DNA from: an uncultured bacterium
Lineage (GTDB): Bacteria > Omnitrophota > Omnitrophia > Omnitrophales > Abzuiibacteriaceae
Direction of reading: 5' to 3'
Assembly: GCA_964387845.1 (NCBI GenBank)
Contig: CAYLXA010000001.1
Coordinates: 224,001 to 288,000, forward strand
Length of the DNA: 64,000 nucleotides
Part shown: one piece after another, positions 31,885-42,130 of the stretch
Position numbering within the stretch: position 1 is the stretch's first letter
Layout of the letters: every line of letters begins with the position of its first letter
Program-made: the position numbers and the translations under genes
Notes under the pieces: model-generated
The model's input: only the letters and a program-made list of their open reading frames with translations
Told to the model about the DNA's origin: nothing
Database searches by the model: none

Positions 31885-31921
31885 CTACTCACAGTAGATG
31901 AATATCCATCCACACTAGATA
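31885..31921. promoter_or_regulatory. Operator-like motif, copy A: two CACWSTAGAT direct repeats at 21-bp phasing
   Basis: tctactCACAGTAGATgaatatccatcCACACTAGATa. The 38-bp block is about 87% identical to 42093..42130. Confidence 0.45.
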
Positions 31922-31983
31922 TTTTTTAGACAAAGATTTGCAAAAGCTTTTTATAAAGTCGGGTGATTTATCTGTAACGATGA

Positions 31984-32409
31984 CTAACCTAACCTACGCA
32001 CTAGTCCTTTAGAAGTCAGAAATTGAAACACCTTATCATGGTCAAATGGCTTATCAAAAAAGGCGTCTGCCCCTTTGGTAAGCATGGCATATTTGAGAGA
32101 TGAGTCTGCCGATATGACGCAGACGACTATGCTTGGGTTTTGTGATTTGAACCAGCCTAAGAGCTGTATTCCCTGGAATTTATCATGTTCATGCAAATGC
32201 CCGTCCAATAGAATGACATGCGGGTTAAATGAATGAAATAGGGTCATCGCGTCTTTTGAGAACTCCGCTTCCTCGATTTGAAACACTCGTTCAAAAATTT
32301 CACGATAAGCCGAACGGATATCGCCCAAGTCTTCCACAATCAAGAGGCGTTTTTTCTTGATGCTTTTTTTGTGAAGATCCTCCGACCCTTCATCAAGATG
32401 ATAGTTCAT
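31984..32409 (-). CDS. Stand-alone receiver (REC) domain protein with a degenerate phospho-acceptor pocket
   Basis: Product from the internal start MNYHLDEG (RBS AAAGGAAA): KKRLLIVEDLGD...VILLDGHL...KP. The ORF-track N-terminal extension overlaps the upstream gene and a terminator hairpin at 32443..32470. Confidence 0.5.
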   Translation of the reverse strand: MNYHLDEGSEDLHKKSIKKKRLLIVEDLGDIRSAYREIFERVFQIEEAEFSKDAMTLFHSFNPHVILLDGHLHEHDKFQGIQLLGWFKSQNPSIVVCVISADSSLKYAMLTKGADAFFDKPFDHDKVFQFLTSKGLVRRLG

Positions 32410-32539
32410 GCTTCTAAATTTCCTTTCGTAACTAGAAATAGAAAACCCGGCATTTTTCAGCCGGGTTATGGAAATCCCGACAAACTTAGCCGGGTATGTA
32501 ATTTTTACTTTGTTACATTCTTGGTTGCATTGTTTATGT

Positions 32540-33172
32540 TTAAACTGGGAATTGACCTGTGTAATAATCAGCGCCTTTTTGCATAGCTTCAAAACGGTCC
32601 TTCGCAAAAGGTGTAGCGCGAAACCAATCATATTCTGTTGTTCGTGCCTTCAAATTTCTCATAAACTTGTACTCAAGTGGAAGTTTATCAATCAATTTGG
32701 GATTTAAAGCGAACGCCTTGATGATTTTGGCATCAAGAGCAGAGATATTGCCTTTAACATCCGTGGTAAATTTTAAATTTTCTTTGACTTTATCTTTAGC
32801 TGTTTTAGTCAGTTTCCAACGTTTAAGCAATCTCCCCTTCTCAATAAATCCTTTTCTTGAAAGAGAATCTATTATAGCGAGTTTAAAATTATTTACGGTT
32901 TTCAAATCAAAATAAAAATTGAGCGGCTGAGGGCAATGTAAAATTTTGATCAAATATTTCTCATGCCTCCGTAAGCGATGCTTTCTGCGTTGAAATTTTA
33001 GCACTGACTTGTCTTTACCATAGAACGCAATGATACCTTGCAATAGGAGCTCGAGAATGGAAACTCGCAATACATGTTCGAGTGCATGCCCGGTCAAAAG
33101 GCTTAACTCTGCGGCTGAAAGCTCATTGGCAGTATGCACGGCCTCAATTTTGTCGCTTGGTTGCGTAGTCAT
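32540..33172 (-). CDS. Hypothetical protein (210 aa), a candidate immunity or accessory gene downstream of the Rhs toxin
   Basis: No recognisable motif. Position only. Confidence 0.35.
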   Translation of the reverse strand: MTTQPSDKIEAVHTANELSAAELSLLTGHALEHVLRVSILELLLQGIIAFYGKDKSVLKFQRRKHRLRRHEKYLIKILHCPQPLNFYFDLKTVNNFKLAIIDSLSRKGFIEKGRLLKRWKLTKTAKDKVKENLKFTTDVKGNISALDAKIIKAFALNPKLIDKLPLEYKFMRNLKARTTEYDWFRATPFAKDRFEAMQKGADYYTGQFPV

Positions 33173-33188
33173 ATGGATTTTATAATTT

Positions 33189-33968
33189 TCAACTCAGTTT
33201 CTCTCTTGCTTTTTTCAGCCAATTCTCCCAATTTTCAAGCGACTCACTATTGTCTCTGCTATTGTCCTTTCTTGTATAATCGGCTGCCTTGTCATAACAA
33301 TCACGAGCTTGTTCGTAGTCTTCTTTTTCAAAATACTGATGGCCCCTTATGCCATAGGCGCCCGCCAATATATATGGTGCAACATCCTGTGCCATAATCA
33401 ATTTGTCAAAAAAGAAACTAGCAGATACTTCATCATCGATTTGCCAATAACAAGTAGCCAAGTCTAAATAAGCAGAGTACACTCTTTCTCTCTCAATATC
33501 GTCTTTGGGCGGATAAAATTCCTGAATAATCCTTCTCCCAAAAGTTATGGACTTTTCAAATTGATCCAAATTCTTATGACAGATGCTAAGAAGGCTCAGA
33601 ATATTTAAAAGAAATTTACTTCTGTTTTCCCCAGCCGATAACGCTTTCTCCAAATATCCTATCGCTTCAACATCGTTGCCCAAGGCAGAGTAAGATTGGC
33701 CAAGTGATTTATACAGAAAAGGTAGGTCCTTATGTTTTGGATTCATTGATAATGCTTCCTGGAAACACTCAATAGCTTTATTTTCCATATTATTTTCTGA
33801 ATATGCTTCGCCCAAAGTTTCCAAAAATTCATAACGAAGTTGTGAGTTCGAATCTTTGGGCACGTCGTTTATTATTGCTAACAGTTTTTTTAAAGCTTCC
33901 GATGCTTTGGCTTCATACATTAACTCGTCAGCCAATTTGATTTCTTTTTTGATTAAATTCGATCTCAT
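33189..33968 (-). CDS. TPR-repeat protein, a candidate immunity or accessory protein immediately after the Rhs toxin gene
   Basis: Multiple 34-aa repeats with the A/L/Y pattern (ALGNDVEAIGYLEKAL..., AYGIRGHQYFEKEDYEQARDCYDKA). Confidence 0.55.
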   Translation of the reverse strand: MRSNLIKKEIKLADELMYEAKASEALKKLLAIINDVPKDSNSQLRYEFLETLGEAYSENNMENKAIECFQEALSMNPKHKDLPFLYKSLGQSYSALGNDVEAIGYLEKALSAGENRSKFLLNILSLLSICHKNLDQFEKSITFGRRIIQEFYPPKDDIERERVYSAYLDLATCYWQIDDEVSASFFFDKLIMAQDVAPYILAGAYGIRGHQYFEKEDYEQARDCYDKAADYTRKDNSRDNSESLENWENWLKKAREKLS

Positions 33969-41705: not shown

Positions 41706-41740
41706 GTTTTGTCTGTCAACGCAGAAGTTTGAATTGACCT

Positions 41741-41786
41741 AAAAAGAAAAAACCCGGCCATTCTGGCCGGGTCGAATATTTTTTTA
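41741..41786 (-). terminator. Rho-independent terminator/attenuator hairpin within the leader of the Ig-like/Rhs operon
   Basis: ACCCGGCCAttcTGGCCGGGT stem. On the minus strand it is followed by TTTTTTCTTTTT, 40 nt before the ATG at 41705. A putative -35/-10 (TTGACC...TAAAGT) lies upstream at about 41870..41900. Confidence 0.5.
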
Positions 41787-41951
41787 GGTCCTTCTGCTTT
41801 TGCCGGGTTGAGCTTGAACTTTTCGTTTGCGGAATTCTGCTCGAAAAGTGATGTTACTTTACTACGATAAAAAAATCGGTCAAGTCTTTTTTTTAAAAAT
41901 ACCTAAATTCCTTCTGCCTACTTTAATAACCTAATCTGCCAGAAAAAGGTT

Positions 41952-42013
41952 TGGCTAGAGAGCGCTCGACCCGGCAAGGAAGAAGCTCTCAGGGCATTTA
42001 AGCCTTTTCGCCA
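41952..42013. repeat. ~60-bp repeat R, copy 1 (TGGCTAGAGAGCGCTCGACCCGGCA...AAGCCTTTTCGCCA)
   Basis: About 93% identical to 50625..50685. Both copies sit 200-250 bp upstream of the first gene of a minus-strand cargo operon. Confidence 0.55.
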
Positions 42014-42092
42014 ACCCTTTTCATTGCTATCTACAGCCTAAAGTCAACTCTATTCAAAGATCAAGTCCAACGTATCAAAATTTGCGCTTTCT

Positions 42093-42130
42093 CTACTGAC
42101 ACTAGATGAAAATCTATCCACACTAGATAA
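42093..42130. promoter_or_regulatory. Operator-like motif, copy B (CACWSTAGAT x2), upstream of the Ig-like/Rhs operon
   Basis: tctactgaCACTAGATgaaaatctatcCACACTAGATa; see 31885..31921. Confidence 0.45.

What the first reader, a model, noticed from the sequence alone, without database searches (positions are those of the whole stretch)
31885..42130. 21-bp-phased CACWSTAGAT direct repeats upstream of a regulator locus and of the Rhs toxin operon
Two 38-bp blocks are about 87% identical: tctactSACASTAGATgaaWatcYatcCACACTAGATa at 31885..31921 and 42093..42130. Each holds two copies of a 10-bp repeat spaced two helical turns apart. One lies upstream of the small-protein and sigma-r4 regulator genes. 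The other lies upstream of the promoter and leader of the Ig-like/Rhs operon. This looks like a small regulon coupling toxin expression to an island-encoded regulator.
Basis: seen in the sequence. Interest (0 to 1): 0.5.

Follow-up and report, generated by a model that had tools for sequence, protein, structure and literature searches.

The report
Paired operator sites before two ICE promoters
Two near-identical 38-bp DNA blocks inside an integrated conjugative element are conserved protein-binding-type sites, set at a fixed distance in front of two promoters (an Rhs toxin operon and a small regulator operon); this is a real but fairly ordinary kind of regulatory switch in a rare, undescribed element.

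Summary
The blocks lie at 31884-31921 and 42092-42129 (one base off the stated coordinates) and are 34/38 identical. The window has only these four half-sites (PWM 22.7-26.4 bits; next best 10.4).

Each "10-bp direct repeat" is half of a 17-bp imperfect palindrome, ATCTA-nn-GTG-nn-TAGAT. Two of these sit 21 bp apart.

All genes here are on the minus strand, inside a ~48-kb integrative conjugative element (ICE) at tRNA-Met.

I found nine independent blocks: two in the window and seven in metagenomic relatives. In every one, the promoter-proximal palindrome is followed by exactly 26 non-conserved bases, then a -35-like TTGnnn, 17-18 nt, and a -10-like TAnnnT. One block is inverted in front of an Rhs orthologue and keeps the same spacing. 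Pairwise identity is 0.78-0.84 in the sites and 0.28-0.37 in the spacers.

Best reading: tandem operators centred near -70 and -91 of two activator-dependent promoters. One drives a conserved 59-aa + 118-aa (GerE/sigma-4-like HTH) gene pair. The other drives a variable cargo slot, here Ig-like/Rhs.

The binding protein is not established, and one relative argues against the 118-aa protein. This is a known kind of system with a new sequence family. Interest is modest.

The parts
31883..31920 (-). Block A: two 17-bp imperfect palindromes (distal 31904-31920, proximal 31883-31899), 21 bp centre to centre. On the sense strand: ATCTAGTGTGGATGGAT attc ATCTACTGTGAGTAGAT.
   Evidence: conserved in L004, L006, L009, L012 and L017
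42091..42128 (-). Block B: two 17-bp imperfect palindromes (distal 42112-42128, proximal 42091-42107). On the sense strand: ATCTAGTGTGGATAGAT tttc ATCTAGTGTCAGTAGAG.
   Evidence: syntenic copy at L004:1840
31828..31856 (-). Promoter-like element P_A: TTGACC (31856-31851), 17 nt, TAAAGT (31833-31828), 26 nt downstream of block A. The inferred transcription start is near 31821, which puts the site centres near -70 and -91.
   Evidence: position conserved in all A-type loci. The start site is inferred, not measured.
42035..42064 (-). Promoter-like element P_B: TTGATC (42064-42059), 18 nt, TAGGCT (42040-42035), 26 nt downstream of block B. It is a weak match.
   Evidence: same geometry in L004B (TAGATC ... 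TAAGGT)
31577..31756 (-). 59-aa gene with an AAGGAGG ribosome-binding site. The product gives a sub-threshold DUF2292-like match. It is the first gene downstream of block A and is conserved in every relative.
   Evidence: The AF2 model has low confidence.
31072..31428 (-). 118-aa GerE/LuxR- or sigma-70-region-4-like HTH protein. It is a candidate binder of the blocks, unproven.
   Evidence: Pfam GerE 24.6 bits (cut-off 23.5). NCBIfam hits cover only the C-terminal half of ECF sigma factors. AF2 pLDDT 73; top Foldseek hits are the LiaR, VraR, GerE and NarL DNA-binding domains. Homologues.
41945..42015 (-). Structured leader element ('D3') in the 5' leader of the cargo operon. A second copy lies at 50618-50688.
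   Evidence: compensatory changes; no Rfam family
41741..41773 (-). Intrinsic-terminator-like hairpin plus T-run inside the leader, 36 nt before the Ig-like gene. It is conserved in L004.
31984..41705 (-). Cargo operon between the two blocks: Ig-like protein (40194-41705), SpvB/TcdB/FG-GAP/RHS protein (33980-40192), TPR protein (33189-33968), 210-aa protein (32540-33172) and a receiver-domain protein (31984-32337/32631).
42235..42899 (-). Conserved 182-aa gene (42351-42899) and basic 39-aa ORF (42235-42354), immediately upstream of block B.
   Evidence: 60% and 71% identical to the L004 counterparts
43091..44416 (+). Divergent XRE-HTH + cupin regulator (441 aa), an alternative candidate binder.
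   Evidence: Its own intergenic region has a different conserved element and no block.
5524..53465 (.). The integrative conjugative element that contains everything above. It has 42-bp identical att repeats (5524-5565 and 53424-53465, the latter being the 3' end of tRNA-Met), an integrase (5648-6877) and genes for a type IV secretion system, coupling protein and relaxase-like protein.

Best explanation
Each 38-bp block is a pair of operators for a dimeric helix-turn-helix protein, bound as a dimer of dimers. The two 17-bp palindromes (ATCTA-nn-GTG-nn-TAGAT) lie two helical turns apart, so both dimers face the same side of the DNA. They are centred about 70 and 91 bp upstream of the start of a weak sigma-70-type promoter.

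From that position the bound protein most likely activates transcription, in the manner of a class I upstream activator. It does not overlap the core promoter, so it is unlikely to block it.

The element carries two such promoters. P_A drives the conserved 59-aa + 118-aa gene pair. P_B drives whatever cargo sits in the slot between the blocks, here the Ig-like/Rhs toxin operon. The cargo transcript must also pass a structured leader and an intrinsic terminator.

My preferred binder is the 118-aa GerE/sigma-4-like protein, possibly together with the 59-aa protein. That would give positive autoregulation and co-induction of the cargo.

Shown: the sites, their symmetry, their conservation, the fixed geometry, and two copies per element.
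Inferred: the promoter and its start site, activation rather than repression, and above all the identity of the binder.
For: Only four sites occur in 64 kb, far above chance.

Nine independent blocks were found: two in the window plus L004A/B, L006, L009, L012, L014 and L017. In all nine the proximal 17-mer is followed by exactly 26 nt of non-conserved sequence, then TTGnnn (TAGATC in one case), 17-18 nt, and TAnnnT.

Mean pairwise identity is 0.82 and 0.78 for the two sites, 0.36 and 0.30 for the spacers, and 0.65 and 0.62 for the -35 and -10 elements.

In L014 the block is inverted relative to its gene, yet it still lies 26 nt from TTGCTT-17-TAAATT, which points at an Rhs orthologue. This is expected for palindromic protein sites, not for a directional element.

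Both arms of the palindrome carry equal information.

The promoters are weak (3-5 of 6 matches per hexamer), which suits dependence on an activator.

A degenerate 20-base pattern scanned over JGI metagenomes hit only these elements, twice on a 377-kb contig, both hits inside the element.

The 59-aa + 117-aa pair lies directly downstream of a block in all six independent A-type loci whose upstream DNA is available (window, L004, L006, L009, L012, L017). The 118-aa protein has a GerE/NarL-type four-helix DNA-binding fold. Solved relatives such as LiaR bind adjoining consensus and secondary sites as a tetramer and bend DNA to recruit RNA polymerase (PMC4482077).

The two relatives whose HTH recognition helix is of the SVSKYLK type (L020, L018) have no block.
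Against: No binding or expression data exist, and the transcription start sites are predicted only.

L017 keeps an almost identical block, but its 107-aa homologue has a different recognition helix (CETSVKDQLRL versus KPKTVNKHIEN) with no frameshift. This argues against the 118-aa protein as the specific binder.

The link between helix type and block presence is confounded by relatedness. In L020 the XRE-cupin HTH has diverged as well.

The L014 block lies next to what look like chromosomal genes, with no regulator in the 7.4 kb available.

The core GTG is asymmetric and points the same way in 8 of 9 blocks, so the sites are not purely palindromic.

The Foldseek E-values for the 118-aa model are weak (0.06 or worse) even though the probabilities are high.
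Confidence: 0.55

Rival explanations
1. The sites are operators as described, but the binder is not the 118-aa protein. It could be the divergent XRE-cupin regulator, the conserved 182-aa or 39-aa products, the HTH_17-receiver protein at 52529-53152, or a host factor. The effect could also be repression or anti-activation rather than activation. In that case the 59-aa/118-aa pair would be a target of the circuit, not its driver.
For: L017 has the block but a divergent recognition helix in its GerE-like protein. The XRE-cupin, 182-aa and 39-aa genes sit next to block B in both the window and L004. L020 lacks the block, and its XRE-cupin HTH is only 36% identical to the window's. The L014 block stands in a seemingly chromosomal context.
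Against: The XRE-cupin/182-aa intergenic region has its own, different, strongly conserved element and no block-like site. An autoregulated XRE protein would normally have its operator there. Sites at about -70 and -91 do not overlap the core promoter, which is unusual for simple repression. No XRE-cupin gene lies within the available flanks of L006, L009 or L017, though those contigs are short.
Confidence: 0.27
2. The two direct repeats are recombination sites (att- or attC-like) left by insertion of a cargo cassette. They bracket the exchangeable Rhs module rather than regulate it.
For: In both the window and L004 the two blocks are direct repeats flanking different cargo, 10.2 kb and 7.4 kb apart. 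In L020 the 40-aa gene and the 60-aa gene are adjacent, with no cargo between them.
Against: The two copies differ at 4 of 38 positions within one element, whereas the ICE's true att repeats are 42/42 identical. No recombinase gene is adjacent. The breakpoints of cargo variation are not at the blocks: the conserved leader and terminator lie inside the 'cassette' on one side, and about 60 nt of conserved sequence lies upstream of block A on the other. The cargo-free locus L020 has no block at all, rather than one. The fixed 26-nt spacing to -35/-10 elements, including in the inverted L014 copy, has no explanation under this model.
Confidence: 0.05
3. The blocks are iteron-, centromere- or oriT-type sites for replication, partition or transfer proteins of the element.
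For: Direct repeats phased at 21-22 bp are typical of iterons. The element is conjugative.
Against: There are only two units per block. No replication-initiator or partition gene is adjacent, and the relaxase and coupling-protein genes are 5-16 kb away. Two oriT or centromere copies in direct orientation would be unusual. The geometry is coupled to promoters, and the sites sit directly upstream of operons that have nothing to do with maintenance.
Confidence: 0.03
4. The similarity is only a duplicated promoter fragment drifting neutrally, and the blocks have no binding function of their own.
For: The two copies in the window share the same downstream -35 position, as a duplicated promoter would.
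Against: Across loci whose neighbouring proteins are 51-83% identical, the sites keep about 80% identity while the adjacent spacers fall to about 30-36%. Conservation is concentrated in the symmetric arms and the GTG core. The inverted L014 copy keeps the same spacing.
Confidence: 0.05

Closest known systems
SetCD (SXT/R391 ICEs) and AcaCD (IncA/C plasmids) activator regulons
   Same: An element-encoded activator, made from two adjacent small genes, recognises a conserved box upstream of several operons of a conjugative element. The box is found at a constant position relative to the -35 element (PMC4344509).
   Different: SetCD is an FlhDC-type complex. It binds a single 19-bp box next to the -35 element (class II position) and controls many transfer operons. 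Here the candidate proteins are a DUF2292-like 59-aa protein and a GerE/sigma-4-like 118-aa protein. The sites are a tandem pair of palindromes 26 nt upstream of the -35. Only two promoters per element carry them, and neither is a transfer operon.
NarL/LiaR/VraR/GerE-type (LuxR-family HTH) regulators with adjoining primary and secondary sites
   Same: The 118-aa protein has the same four-helix DNA-binding fold. LiaR binds an extended region made of a consensus site plus an adjoining secondary site as a tetramer, and bends DNA to recruit RNA polymerase (PMC4482077). That is the arrangement proposed here.
   Different: The 118-aa protein has no receiver domain. It has an extra N-terminal helix and a conserved 59-aa partner gene. 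The recognised sequence (ATCTA-nn-GTG-nn-TAGAT) matches no described box. Binding is untested.
Tandem 17-bp operators of lambdoid CI/Cro repressors (own knowledge)
   Same: Imperfect 17-bp palindromes separated by a few bases, with cooperative binding of two dimers. An XRE-family regulator is encoded nearby.
   Different: Phage operators overlap the promoters they control and come in threes. These sites lie upstream of the -35 element and come in twos. The XRE-cupin's own intergenic region lacks them.
CRP-type class I activation (sites near -61.5, -71.5, -82.5, -92.5; own knowledge)
   Same: The inferred site centres (about -70 and -91) lie on one face of the DNA, upstream of a weak promoter, at strictly fixed spacing.
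   Different: There is no CRP-family protein and no TGTGA-N6-TCACA symmetry. The position depends on a predicted start site.

Membership tests
Transcription-factor operator coupled to a sigma-70-type promoter | Sequence conserved relative to flanking non-coding DNA in diverged relatives | tested here: met
   Sites 0.78-0.84 pairwise identity versus spacers 0.28-0.37; nine independent instances.
Transcription-factor operator coupled to a sigma-70-type promoter | Fixed distance and helical phase to the -35/-10 elements | tested here: met
   26 nt to TTGnnn in 9 of 9 blocks, including the inverted L014 copy; 21 bp between site centres.
Transcription-factor operator coupled to a sigma-70-type promoter | Dyad symmetry suited to a dimeric HTH protein | tested here: met
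   ATCTA-N7-TAGAT arms carry equal information. The core GTG is asymmetric.
Transcription-factor operator coupled to a sigma-70-type promoter | Demonstrated protein binding and an effect on transcription; a mapped start site | not testable with these tools
   Needs EMSA or footprinting, reporter fusions and 5'-end mapping.
LuxR/GerE (NarL-type) HTH DNA-binding domain (118-aa protein) | Match to the family profile above the curated threshold | tested here: met
   Pfam GerE 24.6 bits against a cut-off of 23.5, E = 2e-5. Sigma70_r4_2 scores 23.2, below its cut-off of 25.7. This is a marginal pass.
LuxR/GerE (NarL-type) HTH DNA-binding domain (118-aa protein) | Four-helix effector-domain fold | tested here: met
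   AF2 helices at 46-54, 60-67, 71-84 and 87-102; pLDDT 85-92 in that region. Top Foldseek hits are LiaR, VraR, GerE, NarL and DosR DNA-binding domains with probability 0.9-1.0 but E of 0.06 or worse.
Sigma factor (ECF-type) for the 118-aa protein | Presence of region 2 (core-binding, -10 recognition) as well as region 4 | tested here: not met
   Only the C-terminal half of ECF sigma models is matched, far below their cut-offs. The 59-aa partner is predicted to be beta-rich, not sigma-2-like.
SetCD/AcaCD-type ICE master-activator regulon | FlhD/FlhC-family activator subunits | tested here: not met
   The 59-aa and 118-aa proteins have no FlhDC-type Pfam, NCBIfam or PHROG match.
SetCD/AcaCD-type ICE master-activator regulon | Box abutting the -35 element (class II position) in front of many transfer operons | tested here: not met
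   The box lies 26 nt upstream of the -35 element. There are only two sites in the element, none before the T4SS or relaxase operons.
Site-specific recombination (att/attC-like) repeats flanking a cassette | Identical core in both copies, an adjacent recombinase, and cargo breakpoints at the repeats | tested here: not met
   4 of 38 mismatches, against 42/42 identity for the ICE att repeats. No recombinase is nearby. Conserved leader and upstream segments lie inside the 'cassette'.
Iterons of a replication origin | Three or more tandem units next to a rep gene or AT-rich origin | tested here: not met
   Two units per block, and no rep gene adjacent.
Integrative conjugative element (context) | Tyrosine integrase and direct att repeats at a tRNA gene, plus type IV secretion system, coupling protein and relaxase genes | tested here: met
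   42-bp att repeats and tRNA-Met. Integrase. TrbI, CagX, VirB4/TraC-like, TrbC pilin, coupling protein and Replic_Relax. Mobility itself was not tested.

The most novel reading that the evidence does not exclude
The blocks could be the operators of a previously undescribed ICE switch. In this reading, a two-gene activator (a DUF2292-like 59-aa protein plus a receiver-less GerE/sigma-4-like 118-aa protein) drives its own promoter in a positive feedback loop. It also drives a standard 'cargo expression slot' made of operator pair, weak promoter, a new structured leader RNA (D3) and an intrinsic terminator. Different elements have plugged different cargo into that slot, such as Rhs toxins or an export/glycan operon.
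Probability: 0.2. Interest if true: 0.55.

Novelty: new member of a known kind. Interest (0 to 1): 0.35.

Why it matters
If confirmed, this gives a defined cis-element and promoter architecture for switching on an Rhs/Tc-type toxin operon together with a regulator pair in an uncharacterised ICE lineage. Its closest plasmid T4SS ATPase is only about 26% identical.

It would make three things directly testable: how accessory toxin cargo is tied to the element's own decision circuit, what the widespread but uncharacterised DUF2292-like small proteins do, and whether the conserved leader RNA and terminator add a second checkpoint.

As a type of system, operators upstream of activator-dependent promoters in mobile elements are well known. 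The value is in annotation and as an experimental handle, not as a conceptual surprise.

Tried and rejected
- **Reference genomes.** I scanned 185,579 genomes with the strict pattern SACASTAGAT-N11-CACASTAGAT. The only two hits were coding 7-aa tandem repeats in unrelated organisms. The source genome is apparently not among the representatives, so the genome-wide copy number in the host could not be measured.
- **Other collections.** The viral-contig scan gave 0 hits. Plasmid tblastn with the 118-aa protein gave no match. The T4SS ATPase has only distant relatives, 26% identical at best.
- **Literature.** Searching for the motif strings returned only unrelated primer matches. A search for DUF2292 returned two uninformative papers.
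- **Rfam.** Gathering and permissive thresholds found no family for either leader element.
- **Structure of the 59-aa protein.** The AF2 model was too poor (pLDDT 63.7) to justify a fold search.
- **Split sigma factor idea.** I considered that the 59-aa + 118-aa pair might be a split sigma factor reading the repeats as -35/-10 elements. I rejected it: there is no region 2, the repeats are palindromic, and a separate -35/-10 pair sits at fixed distance.
- **Known boxes.** I considered LexA, CRP and Fur boxes from memory. None fits.
- **'Empty site' test.** I looked in L020 for a cargo-free site holding a single block, which would have favoured the recombination model. L020 has no block at all.
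- **163-aa genes.** I checked whether the 163-aa gene in the window and the one in L004 are related. They are not.
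Full report
**Observation.** The two blocks are real. They lie at 31884-31921 and 42092-42129 on the plus strand, one base below the stated coordinates, and are 34/38 identical. CACWSTAGAT occurs three times exactly against 0.13 expected; the fourth copy is GACACTAGAT. A PWM built from 16 half-sites scores the four window sites at 22.7-26.4 bits. The next best position in the 64 kb scores 10.4, and shuffled sequence reaches 11-18.

**Anatomy of a block.** Each 10-bp repeat is the right arm and core of a 17-bp imperfect palindrome. On the gene-sense (minus) strand it reads ATCTA-nn-GTG-nn-TAGAT. 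The left and right arms carry equal information. A block is two such palindromes separated by 4 bp, so their centres are 21 bp apart, two helical turns.

**Context.** Every gene around the blocks is on the minus strand, and the whole region lies inside an integrative conjugative element (ICE).
- The ICE has 42-bp identical att repeats at 5524-5565 and 53424-53465. The latter is the 3' end of a tRNA-Met gene.
- It has a tyrosine integrase at 5648-6877.
- It carries TrbI, CagX/VirB9-like, VirB4/TraC-like, TrbC pilin, coupling-protein and relaxase-like genes.
- Block B follows a conserved 182-aa gene and a basic 39-aa ORF. These are divergent from an XRE-HTH + cupin regulator gene.
- Block B precedes an operon encoding an Ig-like protein, a 2070-aa SpvB/TcdB/FG-GAP/RHS protein, a TPR protein, a 210-aa protein and a receiver-domain protein.
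- Block A lies 63 nt after that operon and 127 nt before a 59-aa gene with a good ribosome-binding site. A 118-aa HTH gene follows.

**Promoter coupling in the window.** Aligning the two regions shows that the similarity continues past the block in geometry, not in sequence. In both, the proximal palindrome is followed by 26 nt and then a -35-like hexamer (A: TTGACC at 31856-31851; B: TTGATC at 42064-42059). A -10-like hexamer follows 17-18 nt later (A: TAAAGT; B: TAGGCT). If transcription starts about 7 nt after the -10 element, the two site centres fall near -70 and -91.

**Relatives.** The 118-aa protein has only seven homologues in 5.8 billion protein clusters, and the 59-aa protein four. 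Their contigs show that the small gene + HTH gene pair is a conserved module (one short contig, L018, has a 114-aa gene in place of the small gene).
- A block lies upstream of the module in L004, L006 (= L007, L008), L009 (= L010), L012 and L017.
- L004 has a second block in the position syntenic with block B, after its XRE-cupin, 184-aa and 39-aa genes. The cargo behind it is different: a 163-aa protein, a receiver protein, an OEP, a GT2, a HlyD-like protein and a glycoamylase.
- A degenerate 20-base pattern scanned over the JGI metagenome collection returned just three hits. Two are the L004 blocks, on a 377-kb contig. The third is L014.
- In L014 the block sits about 280 bp upstream of a gene whose product is 39% identical over its whole length to the window's Rhs protein. 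The block is inverted relative to that gene.

**Key result.** In all nine independent blocks the proximal 17-mer is followed by exactly 26 nt, then TTGnnn (TAGATC once), 17-18 nt, and TAnnnT. This includes L014: read towards its Rhs gene, it gives block, 26 nt, TTGCTT, 17 nt, TAAATT. Mean pairwise identity across seven non-redundant regions is as follows:

| Segment | Mean pairwise identity |
|---|---|
| Distal / proximal site | 0.82 / 0.78 |
| 26-nt spacer | 0.36 |
| 17-nt spacer | 0.30 |
| -35 element | 0.65 |
| -10 region | 0.62 |

This is a phylogenetic footprint with a strict spacing constraint. It is the signature of a protein-binding site that has to face RNA polymerase from a set position. 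The equally spaced inverted copy shows that the functional unit is the pair of palindromes, not their direction.

**Mechanism.** The best-supported reading is a tandem operator for two cooperating HTH dimers, placed upstream of weak sigma-70-type promoters (3-5 of 6 matches per hexamer). It most likely activates transcription. Each element has two such promoters. One drives the 59-aa/118-aa pair. The other drives a cargo slot. The slot has conserved non-coding ends:
- On the P_B side there is a leader of about 320 nt. It holds a structured element (D3, 41945-42015) and an intrinsic-terminator-like hairpin (41773-41751 plus a T-run). Both are conserved in L004, D3 with compensatory base changes.
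- On the P_A side about 60 nt of conserved sequence lie upstream of block A.
So expression of the cargo probably needs both promoter activation and terminator readthrough.

**Who binds?** This is not settled.
- For the 118-aa protein: it and its 59-aa partner lie immediately downstream of a block in all six independent A-type loci with upstream DNA available. It passes the Pfam GerE threshold, marginally (24.6 against 23.5 bits). Its AF2 model (pLDDT 73, and 85-92 in the HTH region) has the four-helix NarL/GerE effector fold, with the LiaR, VraR, GerE and NarL DNA-binding domains as top structural matches. LiaR is known to occupy adjoining consensus and secondary sites as a tetramer and to bend DNA towards the polymerase (PMC4482077). 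Loci whose homologue has an SVSKYLK-type recognition helix (L020, L018) have no block.
- Against it: L017 keeps an almost identical block, but its 107-aa homologue has a quite different recognition helix, with no frameshift.
- The XRE-cupin regulator is the main alternative. However, its own intergenic region carries a different strongly conserved element and no block.
- The 59-aa protein matches DUF2292 below threshold in 5 of 5 members, and its model is unreliable.

**Rivals rejected.**
- *Recombination sites bracketing a cassette.* The copies differ at 4 of 38 positions, whereas the true att repeats are 42/42 identical. No recombinase is adjacent. The cargo breakpoints are not at the blocks. 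The cargo-free relative L020 has no block rather than one.
- *Iterons, centromere or oriT.* There are only two units, no maintenance genes nearby, and clear coupling to promoters.
- *Neutral promoter duplication.* This does not explain the footprint.

**Comparison with known systems.** The arrangement works like element-encoded activator regulons such as SetCD of SXT/R391, where a box sits at a constant position relative to the -35 elements of several operons (PMC4344509). It also resembles NarL/LiaR-type tandem sites. It is not a member of the SetCD/AcaCD family. There are no FlhDC-like subunits, the box lies 26 nt upstream of the -35 rather than abutting it, and only two non-transfer promoters carry it. 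The motif string is absent from the searchable literature. The element lineage has no close plasmid relatives.

**Verdict.** This is a new sequence family of a known kind of regulatory device. Interest is modest (0.35).

Noticed in passing
window 41945-42015 (minus) and 50618-50688 (minus); also L004 ~1935-2035, L017 ~1578-1668, L020 ~9776-9862: A conserved structured element ('D3': GUGGCGAAAAG - hairpin - CCUGrGAG ... CUCyCUAGCCAC). Its outer stem and two inner helices show compensatory changes between copies. It sits in the 5' leaders of the cargo operon, of the 113-aa gene at 50094-50435, and of the small-protein gene in L020. No Rfam family matches. It is a candidate new cis-regulatory leader RNA.
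   Followed up: partly
window 41741-41773 (minus); L004 ~2195-2235: An intrinsic-terminator-like hairpin plus T-run lies inside the leader, 36 nt before the Ig-like gene. It is conserved in L004 in front of unrelated cargo, which suggests attenuation or antitermination control.
   Followed up: partly
window 19404-19483 and 26631-26710: An 80-nt direct repeat (78% identical) lies upstream of the TrbC-pilin/T4SS operon and of the 135-aa/relaxase/coupling-protein operon. It is next to a second GerE/sigma-4-like 122-aa gene (19469-19837). It may be a second repeated promoter or operator module, controlling the transfer genes.
   Followed up: no
window 5524-5565 / 53424-53465 and 5682-5705 / 53330-53353: The ICE att repeats (42 bp, identical; the right copy is the tRNA-Met 3' end) are accompanied by a 24-nt repeat (TTTGTTAGCACCrTGTTAGCACGG) just inside each end. 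These are probably arm-type integrase or excisionase sites.
   Followed up: partly
L004 ~9320-9600, L009 ~2650-2940, L017 ~1950-2170: A conserved insertion of about 270 nt lies in the leader between the block-A promoter and the 59-aa gene. It is absent from the window, L006 and L012. It contains a long hairpin followed by a T-run and a second GC hairpin. No Rfam match.
   Followed up: partly
window ~42964-43003 (intergenic between the 182-aa gene and the XRE-cupin gene): A segment nearly identical in the window and L004 (GGATGTCAAAtATAGATATAAATATGTCAgAAACTATCTTAA). It has ATGTCA repeated 21 bp apart and overlaps divergent promoter-like hexamers (TTGACA-17-TAGACT on the plus strand, TTGACA-17-TAAGGT on the minus strand). 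It is probably the XRE-cupin operator region.
   Followed up: partly
window 42235-42354 (minus): A 39-aa highly basic ORF overlaps the stop codon of the 182-aa gene. It is conserved (71% identity) and called as a gene in L004 and L020. Its function is unknown.
   Followed up: partly
L014 4879-4915 (contig OBEQ010432564.1): A block inverted relative to an Rhs orthologue (39% identical). It is flanked on the other side by convergent outer-membrane, lipoprotein and pseudopilin-like genes. It may be a copy outside an ICE, or at an element edge.
   Followed up: partly
L020 7468-10676: A relative with no cargo slot: the XRE-cupin gene, then divergently a 139-aa gene, a 40-aa gene, a D3-like element, a 60-aa gene and a GerE-like gene. 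It has no ATCTA/TAGAT block, and its HTH recognition helices differ from those of the window. This may be the ancestral arrangement.
   Followed up: partly
window 27005-30919 (minus); 44423-53152: Directly downstream of the regulator pair lies a 1304-aa DUF4062 + STAND NTPase protein, which looks like a defence gene. Upstream lies an unusual cluster: five receiver-domain proteins, a 7TM histidine kinase, a methyltransferase and an FG-GAP protein.
   Followed up: no
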